A DNA stretch of 64,000 bases from Octopus vulgaris (taxonomy: Eukaryota). The DNA lies in contig OX597826.1 in assembly GCA_951406725.2 (NCBI GenBank), forward strand, positions 32,798,001 to 32,862,000, in the 5' to 3' direction. Made by a program: the position numbers and the translations under genes. Below, piece after piece: positions 52,067 through 52,488 of the stretch (position 1 is its first letter; each line of letters begins with the position of its first letter). The notes under the pieces are model-generated. The model ran no database searches. It was not told the origin of the DNA and saw nothing but the letters and a program-made list of their open reading frames with translations.

Positions 52067-52207
52067 TACATTATTTACATTTGACAGATATTTGTCCCCA
52101 TCCTGTTTGTTGTTAACACGTTTTGGATGATATACCCTCCAGCCTTCATCAGGTGTCTTGGGGAAATTTTGAACCTGGGTTCTCATTCCTAAGGTTATTT
52201 TTTGATG

Positions 52208-52291
<84 letters not shown>

Positions 52292-52488
52292 TCACTGCCT
52301 GGAATCAAACTCGGAATCTTACCTGTAATCTTAACCACTATGAAATTTCCCCAAGGCTCCTAATGAAGGCCAGAGGGTATATCAACTGAAACACTGTGTT
52401 AACAACAAACAAGATGAGGATAAATATCTGTCAAATGTAAATAATGTAAATAATGTACATAATTCCTAATCTCTTAAATATAGAACTG
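52067..52488. mobile_element. HHR family A: near-complete minus copy (tRNA-like head, (AAT)n, HHR) fused to a plus-strand 3' copy
   Basis: Minus 52342 to 52067: catagtggttaag...gagtttgattcc...gacac-CTGATGA-aggctg. Plus 52342-52488: gaaatttcccc..CTAATGA..GAAA..tagaactg. Confidence 0.85.

What the first reader, a model, noticed from the sequence alone, without database searches (positions are those of the whole stretch)
52067..52488. tRNA-headed, ribozyme-tailed short element: a candidate Penelope-dependent SINE class
Four loci (11647, 19891, 24844, 52067) reconstruct an element of about 320 bp: A-box-like catagtggttaag, B-box-like gagtttgattcc, a variable (AAT)n tract, a second ggttcgaa motif, HHR GACAC-CUGAUGA-A-GGCUG..CAGCC-GAAA-CG-UU-GUGUU, and a fixed 3' end ...cttaaatatagaactg with no poly(A) or LINE-type repeat tail. 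Two of the four loci have inverted partial copies and I see no TSDs. Canonical SINEs borrow LINE tails; this one appears to borrow a Penelope-type pLTR/HHR end while keeping a Pol III promoter. I do not know of a formal description, but I cannot search the literature or Repbase.
Basis: partly seen in the sequence, partly recalled or inferred. Interest (0 to 1): 0.85.

Follow-up and report, generated by a model that had tools for sequence, protein, structure and literature searches.

The report
Penelope retroelement end with tRNA-like head
This repeat is the end piece of a Penelope-type jumping gene in an octopus-like genome; it carries a tRNA-like stretch where its RNA likely starts, so most copies are short and look like SINEs but were likely made from the full element's own RNA rather than forming a separate SINE class.

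Summary
The repeat is real, but it is not a chimera that borrows a Penelope end. It is the pseudo-LTR of a protein-coding Penelope-like element (RT plus GIY-YIG-type endonuclease, Poseidon-like). All 30 loci picked on endonuclease DNA run into the tRNA-like head. The "fixed 3' end" is the first ~54 codons of the ORF. Insertions show Penelope hallmarks: head-to-head arms, the tail on one arm only (79 of 93 pairs), and 7-15 bp duplications (61 of 79; ~4 expected), so "no TSD" is wrong. The unusual part is a tRNA-Ile-like A/B-box cassette in the pLTR, not found in related elements scanned. 77 of 85 head-bearing copies begin at it, mostly 2-3 nt upstream. Short and long copies share the same variants, and no separate short-copy lineage was found. 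Likely mechanism: RNA starts at the cassette and reverse transcription starts internally at the first pLTR-ORF junction, giving short copies. Whether Pol III or a TATA-type Pol II promoter sets that start is untested. The ribozyme core is broken in every window copy. New variant of a known kind.

The parts
52056..52067 (.). left copy of a probable target-site duplication (10 of 12 identical to the right copy)
   Evidence: family-wide duplications
52068..52342 (-). inverted arm of the pLTR: head from the A box on (with a small internal change), (AAT)n, ORF start, hammerhead; lacks the ~30 nt tail
52330..52342 (-). A-box-like word of the tRNA-Ile-like head
   Evidence: sequence; head versus tRNA-Ile(AAT)
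52301..52312 (-). B-box-like word
   Evidence: sequence
52210..52287 (-). (AAT)n tract, variable in length and often interrupted by other insertions in other copies
52068..52186 (-). start of the element's ORF (ATG at 52186), which contains the hammerhead
52115..52157 (-). minimal type I hammerhead, GAAA half and stem II damaged in this copy
52343..52488 (+). direct arm of the pLTR, 5'-truncated, with tail
52355..52400 (+). degenerate hammerhead of the direct arm
52459..52488 (+). ~30 nt tail, present on one arm only
52491..52502 (.). right copy of the probable target-site duplication
11632..11850 (.). second insertion: inverted tail-less arm 11647-11695, direct tailed arm 11693-11836, perfect 13 bp duplication at 11632-11644 and 11838-11850
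19893..20182 (+). third insertion: B box, (AAT)n, ORF start (ATG 20028, 51 codons open to the end of the copy), hammerhead, tail
24844..24970 (-). fourth insertion: tailed arm truncated inside hammerhead stem II

Best explanation
The repeat is the pseudo-LTR of a protein-coding, Poseidon-like Penelope element whose tRNA-Ile-like cassette likely marks the start of the element's RNA, and the short copies were likely made when the element's reverse transcriptase began internally at the first pLTR-ORF junction and copied back to that start. Shown: the order ORF stop, ~30 nt spacer with a palindrome, tRNA-like head, (AAT)n, ORF start with hammerhead, tail; two classes of 3' end about 30 nt apart; head-to-head arms with one tail; 7-15 bp duplications; 5' ends piled at 2-3 nt before the tRNA-like +1; shared variants in short and long copies. 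Inferred: a few master loci with an upstream pLTR were transcribed from that position. The protein primed DNA synthesis at the two tail sites, as measured in vitro for the anole element. Priming at the upstream junction gave ~0.3 kb copies; priming at the downstream pLTR gave long copies truncated at scattered points. A cDNA end at the palindrome often folded back and started the inverted arm. For what sets the start I put about 50% on the A/B boxes (Pol III), 35% on a TATA-like word 30-34 nt upstream (Pol II) and 15% on a stop of the enzyme at the hairpin. The family looks inactive now: copies are 6-7% from the commonest letters and no intact ORF was seen.
For: ORF linkage: 30 of 30 endonuclease-picked loci run into the head, 25 of 30 reach the hammerhead/tail region by eye (three are near-identical duplicates). 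RT domain: RVT_1 E 1.6e-9; 283 relatives at E<=1e-20. L271 runs from a direct pLTR on into the ORF; its first 132 codons match relative P0003 from residue 18 (44%, E 1e-27). Ten of 30 RT-picked loci carry an inverted pLTR arm at their 5' junction. Insertion signature: 79 of 93 head-to-head pairs have the tail on one arm only, 0 tail-to-tail pairs, 61 of 79 have duplications of 7 bp or more against ~4 in shuffled flanks; the same layout is described in PMC8557442 and PMC3846280 (passages). 5' pile-up: head 16-mer 6368 versus upstream 16-mer 1189 genome matches, 56 nt apart; 1 of 30 position-ordered head loci reaches the ORF, while upstream-picked copies end anywhere from -29 to beyond -1450. 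Of 85 head starts, 47 are free ends whose match to the native upstream DNA falls to background beyond -3, 30 are fold-back hairpins and 8 continue upstream. One source: no column separates 94 short from 41 long copies after 102 tests (best p 0.0018); linked variants occur in both (19/36 v 40/93; 8/38 v 17/93); 0 of 4357 short-short pairs share 3 rare variants. Internal initiation at two tail sites: PMC11167929 (parts 1-2 of 4 read).
Against: No RNA start was observed. No copy running complete from head through ORF to the second pLTR was seen; the ORF is known from overlapping broken copies (longest open frame 343 aa). A star-like copy set is also what a SINE with one or two masters gives, so a separate short master is not excluded. 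Short copies are slightly less diverged than long ones (5.6% v 6.7%, p 0.001; partly a result of picking the best tail and head matches). The native palindrome overlaps the pile-up, so part of it may be an enzyme stop. Pfam GIY-YIG did not match this family's endonuclease region; that assignment rests on 56-60% identity to the C-terminal domain of relatives.
Confidence: 0.7

Rival explanations
1. Short copies are a self-propagating, Pol III-transcribed, Penelope-dependent SINE that split off from the pLTR: inserted short copies keep the internal A/B boxes and the priming site and were copied again in trans.
For: 5' ends sit where a tRNA-type promoter would start. A and B boxes are kept at tRNA spacing. 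No run of four T among 2612 commonest-letter columns on the sense strand. Short copies make up about nine in ten head-bearing copies. Local tandem arrays of the short unit exist (L008/L009).
Against: No diagnostic column and no nested short-copy clade. The lack of T runs is not significant (p 0.07-0.20). The head is native to the coding element, so no SINE-specific fusion is needed.
Confidence: 0.2
2. Short copies are ordinary 5'-truncated copies of a long RNA; the enzyme stalls or folds back at the palindrome and tRNA-like structure, and the tRNA-like piece is a passenger captured in the 3' UTR.
For: A native imperfect palindrome overlaps the pile-up, 30 of 85 starts are fold-backs, and palindromes at pLTR 5' ends with self-priming are described for rotifer Penelopes (PMC3846280 passages).
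Against: 47 of 85 starts are free ends at the loop apex (-2/-3) without fold-back. A stall at an RNA hairpin would be expected at its 3' base, near +10 (inference). The hairpin is weak (z -1.05).
Confidence: 0.1

Closest known systems
Penelope/Poseidon-clade PLEs, e.g. the anole element PAc (PMC11167929) and Adineta Pen2a (PMC3846280)
   Same: Single ORF with RT and C-terminal endonuclease; pLTR includes the first codons and a minimal hammerhead; two 3' ends about 30 nt apart; inverted 5' arm, one tail, palindrome at the junction, duplications of about 10 bp. RT is 44% identical to an Anolis carolinensis protein (P0044; that P0044 is PAc is my inference).
   Different: The pLTR holds a tRNA-like A/B-box cassette and an (AAT)n tract, and copies starting at that cassette dominate. 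Promoters described for PLEs in the passages read are Pol II types (PMC2377424; PMC3846280).
Schistosoma SM-alpha / Sj-alpha SINE-like retroposons
   Same: Short repeat with an apparent Pol III promoter followed by a type I hammerhead (review PMC6765202 and PMC8490949, passages).
   Different: Those are described as tandem-repeat, non-coding elements; here the unit is part of a coding element and occurs mostly as single or head-to-head insertions. The primary paper was not held.
Non-LTR retrozymes and non-autonomous PLEs (bioRxiv 10.64898/2026.07.22.740005; MRC1 in PMC8557442; short non-autonomous Penelope in bioRxiv 10.1101/596502)
   Same: Short, hammerhead-bearing or pLTR-related sequences moved by PLE enzymes; PMC8969392 notes retrozymes can be considered a type of SINE (passage).
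   Different: Retrozymes are head-to-tail arrays; 'tRNA' and 'promoter' do not occur in the preprint's main text. Arrays are rare here and no separate non-autonomous lineage was found.
Cassandra, Helenus and Ajax (PMC10886601)
   Same: Small-RNA-gene-derived sequence inside a terminal repeat (abstract start and passages).
   Different: Those are non-autonomous LTR elements; this is a coding Penelope-like element with a pseudo-LTR.

Membership tests
EN+ Penelope-like element (Penelope/Poseidon type) | ORF with PLE-type reverse transcriptase | tested here: met
   RVT_1 E 1.6e-9; 44-63% identity to relatives over ~295 aa; groups with them in a quick tree
EN+ Penelope-like element (Penelope/Poseidon type) | C-terminal GIY-YIG endonuclease | tested here: inconclusive
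   No Pfam hit for L248; 56-60% identical to the C-terminal domain of relatives and 29% to P0044; two of 120 listed relatives carry PF01541
EN+ Penelope-like element (Penelope/Poseidon type) | pLTR includes the ORF start; hammerhead in the pLTR | tested here: met
EN+ Penelope-like element (Penelope/Poseidon type) | Inverted 5' arm with a 30-40 nt tail at one end only | tested here: met
   79 of 93 pairs; tail here 25-34 nt
tRNA-derived SINE | Head homologous to a tRNA, with A and B boxes | tested here: met
   Score 55 against tRNA-Ile(AAT) L347, 500 shuffles 26+-4, max 41; a second tRNA gene scored 38. Only two tRNA genes were compared; Rfam tRNA model gave no match
tRNA-derived SINE | Transcription by RNA polymerase III | not testable with these tools
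   Indirect only: 5' ends at -2/-3; no T4 run, p 0.07-0.20
tRNA-derived SINE | Separate non-autonomous lineage, distinct from its driver except at the 3' end | tested here: not met
   The whole unit, head included, is colinear with the driver's pLTR; no diagnostic variants
tRNA-derived SINE | LINE-derived or simple-repeat 3' tail | tested here: not met
   The 3' end is the PLE ORF start
Non-LTR retrozyme | Head-to-tail tandem array with a hammerhead in each unit | tested here: not met
   One clear array (L008/L009) among the 60 tail-picked rows; head-to-head pairs dominate
Minimal type I hammerhead of PLEs | CUGANGA and GAAA core, stems I and II, palindromic minimal stem III, extra base before stem II | tested here: met
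   Commonest letters over 106 copies fit the description in PMC4209133 (part 1 of 4 read); Rfam hammerhead models gave no hit
Minimal type I hammerhead of PLEs | Self-cleavage | not testable with these tools
   2 of 291 arms start exactly at the predicted cut, near the background rate

The most novel reading that the evidence does not exclude
An autonomous Penelope element captured a tRNA-derived RNA polymerase III promoter into its pseudo-LTR, so that one sequence is at once the driver's promoter and a complete SINE (internal promoter plus priming site); its tens of thousands of short copies are a SINE born inside its own driver, and the T-run-free 2.6 kb element may itself have been read by Pol III.
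Probability: 0.3. Interest if true: 0.8.

Novelty: new variant of a known kind. Interest (0 to 1): 0.55.

Why it matters
It corrects a tempting annotation: a repeat that any pipeline would file as a tRNA SINE is the terminal repeat of a Penelope element. It offers a simple route by which SINE-like elements can arise from PLEs without a fusion event. It also gives an unusually large fossil record of PLE integration: two priming sites, one tail per insertion, duplications peaking at 12-14 bp, and fold-back at the 5' end. That record fits the one in vitro study I found and makes the second-strand step testable. If Pol III drives it, I found no PLE with such a promoter in the papers searched; Repbase, Dfam and most subscription journals could not be searched.

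Tried and rejected
Rfam gathering on the window: 0 hits; E-value scans of five loci, the head and the hammerhead gave no tRNA or hammerhead match to the element. Other PLE families of the genome as drivers: a 781-aa family found by GIY-YIG, an old family and a young 717-aa family have different pLTRs and were rejected. A protein search with the 51-aa ORF start among longer proteins found only one 94-aa Octopus bimaculoides gene model. Sequencing runs: no RNA holder listed; 20 rows under six organism labels hold part of the unit. Raw RNA reads of three runs (organism C) cover the unit about equally on both strands, show no place where many molecules start or end, and so say nothing on promoter or cleavage; their loose ends repeat the two 3' ends and the hairpin junction, as copies inside host transcripts would. 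5' ends at the hammerhead cut site: no clear peak. One search's match lengths were off by one base and were redone. The tree is the quick one and has no labelled clade references. Two papers were not held. Supplements were not read; those of the octopus repeat annotation (PMC13282606) could contain this family. Two look-ups of earlier findings returned nothing.

Full report
Observation. The four loci are real and mutually homologous. The genome is 2.8 Gb; its flanking repeats look like octopus SINEs (recalled) and the only protein hit to the element's first codons is an Octopus bimaculoides gene model, so I call it octopus-like. The best 30 tail matches gave the whole unit: a tRNA-like head of ~75 nt, (AAT)n, a linker, a minimal hammerhead and the 3' end. 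Eight loci in 600 kb of evenly spaced samples scale to roughly 37,000 loci (Poisson range about 16,000-74,000; my arithmetic).

The driver. GIY-YIG and RT searches found three other Penelope-like families, all with different terminal repeats. The link came from L012, where coding-looking DNA precedes the head. Searching with that DNA returned 30 loci, all of which run through a stop codon into the head; 25 reach the hammerhead/tail region (by eye). Upstream lies an RT (RVT_1 E 1.6e-9) with 283 relatives at E<=1e-20, 44% identical to an Anolis protein and 53-63% to the closest relatives. In L271 a direct pLTR continues past the 'fixed 3' end' into the ORF, and those first 132 codons align to relative P0003 from residue 18 (E 1e-27); the window's own 51 codons at 20028-20180 give a short match to the same place (11 of 17, E 4e-4). 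So the finding's unit is 3' UTR plus ORF start, that is, the pLTR. Copies are about 89% identical to each other and 6-7% from the commonest letters; no intact ORF was seen. With the rate quoted in PMC13282606 (parts 1-2 of 3 read) that is very roughly 15-19 million years (inference).

Insertion signature. Among 298 distinct 3' ends, 156 are at the full end and 113 are 25-34 nt short. Of 93 head-to-head pairs, 79 have the tail on exactly one arm, 1 on both, 2 on neither, 11 other; no tail-to-tail pair was found. Sixty-one of the 79 are flanked by direct repeats of 7 bp or more (30 of 12-14 bp), against about 4 in shuffled flanks. The window's 11.6 kb locus has a perfect 13 bp duplication and the 52 kb locus a 10-of-12 one. 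This is the layout described for PLEs (PMC8557442 and PMC3846280, passages), and two internal priming sites bounding the tail were measured for the anole element (PMC11167929, parts 1-2 of 4).

The head. It does not score as a tRNA in Rfam or ARAGORN and does not fold as a cloverleaf, but it aligns end to end with a tRNA-Ile(AAT) gene of the genome (score 55; shuffles 26+-4, maximum 41; a second tRNA gene 38). Only two tRNA genes were compared, so the isotype is provisional. In 46 of 79 related loci from metagenomes, a hammerhead followed the ORF in 10 and an A/B pair in none; TATA-like words precede the hammerhead in several printed examples. The cassette therefore looks lineage-specific, with the caveat that the closest relatives' pLTRs were not seen.

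Where copies begin. An exact head 16-mer occurs 6368 times and an upstream 16-mer 56 nt away 1189 times, although the upstream word is the better preserved in copies that span both (25 v 11 of 30; the first figure is inflated because the query contained it). Of 30 position-ordered head loci (four pairs are the same locus or near-duplicates) one reaches the ORF; copies picked on the upstream word end anywhere from -29 to beyond -1450. Of 85 distinct head starts, 47 are free ends that match the native upstream DNA at -1 to -3 and not beyond, 30 are fold-back hairpins, and 8 continue upstream. That is a sharp boundary, best read as the RNA's 5' end. It lies 10 nt before the A box, as for tRNA-type promoters, but also about 30 nt after a TATAA word that overlaps the ORF stop codon (sequence), so Pol II is not excluded. 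The sense strand has no T4 run in 2612 commonest-letter columns, but that is not significant (p 0.07-0.20). RNA reads were uninformative on this.

SINE or by-product. No column separates 94 short from 41 long copies after 102 tests. Linked subfamily variants occur in both classes, and no pair of short copies shares three rare variants. The simplest reading is that a few masters made both classes: internal priming at the upstream pLTR-ORF junction gives start-anchored short copies, priming at the downstream pLTR gives long truncated ones. A short master that amplified in one burst would look similar, so the SINE reading keeps about 20%.

Ribozyme. The commonest letters give a minimal type I hammerhead of the PLE kind (PMC4209133 part 1 of 4). 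Twenty-three of 106 copies keep both core halves, mostly lost by CpG decay; none in the window does. Two of 291 arms start at the predicted cut, one of them the window's 11695 end, which is near background.

Prior art. Pol III promoter plus hammerhead in a SINE-like repeat is described for Schistosoma; retrozymes as non-autonomous PLE derivatives (bioRxiv 10.64898/2026.07.22.740005, part 1 of 5 and passages; PMC7229834 passages), possibly a type of SINE (PMC8969392 passage); non-autonomous Chlamys and Penelope elements; small-RNA-derived LTRs. Nine full-text searches showed no paper describing a tRNA-derived cassette in the pLTR of a coding PLE, nor this octopus family; the giant squid paper mentions hammerheads and Penelope only as counts (passages). 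Repbase and Dfam could not be searched.

Verdict. Not a new SINE class as proposed, but a Penelope-like element with an unusual tRNA-derived pLTR and a large excess of start-anchored short copies. New variant of a known kind; interest 0.55.

Noticed in passing
L083:7135-7164: The element's 30-nt tail alone sits inverted at the 5' truncation point of a fragment of a different, older Penelope family; 1 of 30 loci of that family shows this, so chance nesting or a cross-family template jump.
   Followed up: partly
L201-L210 (e.g. L201:2006-8620): A very young Penelope family (717-aa open frames, near-identical copies, 2.59 kb tandem period, head-to-head arms) whose copies end in (AT)n microsatellites and have two or three discrete 3' ends; its hammerhead-like core reads differently from the usual one.
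   Followed up: partly
L081-L083, L099 (ORFs near 591-2027 and 1949-4291): A young GIY-YIG/RT family with a 781-aa frame preceded by a separate long upstream ORF and a 3' region of tandem repeats; my simple scan found no hammerhead in these loci.
   Followed up: partly
L002:1060-1440, also L004, L007, L012, L022, L241: The (AAT)n tract of the pLTR is often split by later insertions; in L002 the insert translates like a restriction-type endonuclease of site-specific LINEs (resemblance recalled, not tested).
   Followed up: no
L008/L009 (G000:C14 near 71.466 Mb): A head-to-tail array of the (AAT)n-hammerhead-tail unit behind one head, with shared private changes: a retrozyme-like array arising from this pLTR.
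   Followed up: partly
window 2528-2696, 8909-9142, 21427-21494: Self-inverted (palindromic) stretches in the self-comparison of the window.
   Followed up: no
window 26061-27155 and 53516-54269: Tandem repeat regions of larger units.
   Followed up: no
window 19631-19880 and many similar places (e.g. 1731-2248, 57140-57464, 63007-63287): Abundant tRNA-derived SINE copies of another family ending in (ATT)n; one abuts the 19.9 kb insertion.
   Followed up: no
L235:1846 (reads): In all three RNA runs of organism C many reads leave the element at one position in the endonuclease region with a near-invariant continuation, suggesting one expressed rearranged copy.
   Followed up: no
L409 about 480 nt upstream of the match: An A/B-box pair upstream of a related element in a metagenome contig.
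   Followed up: no
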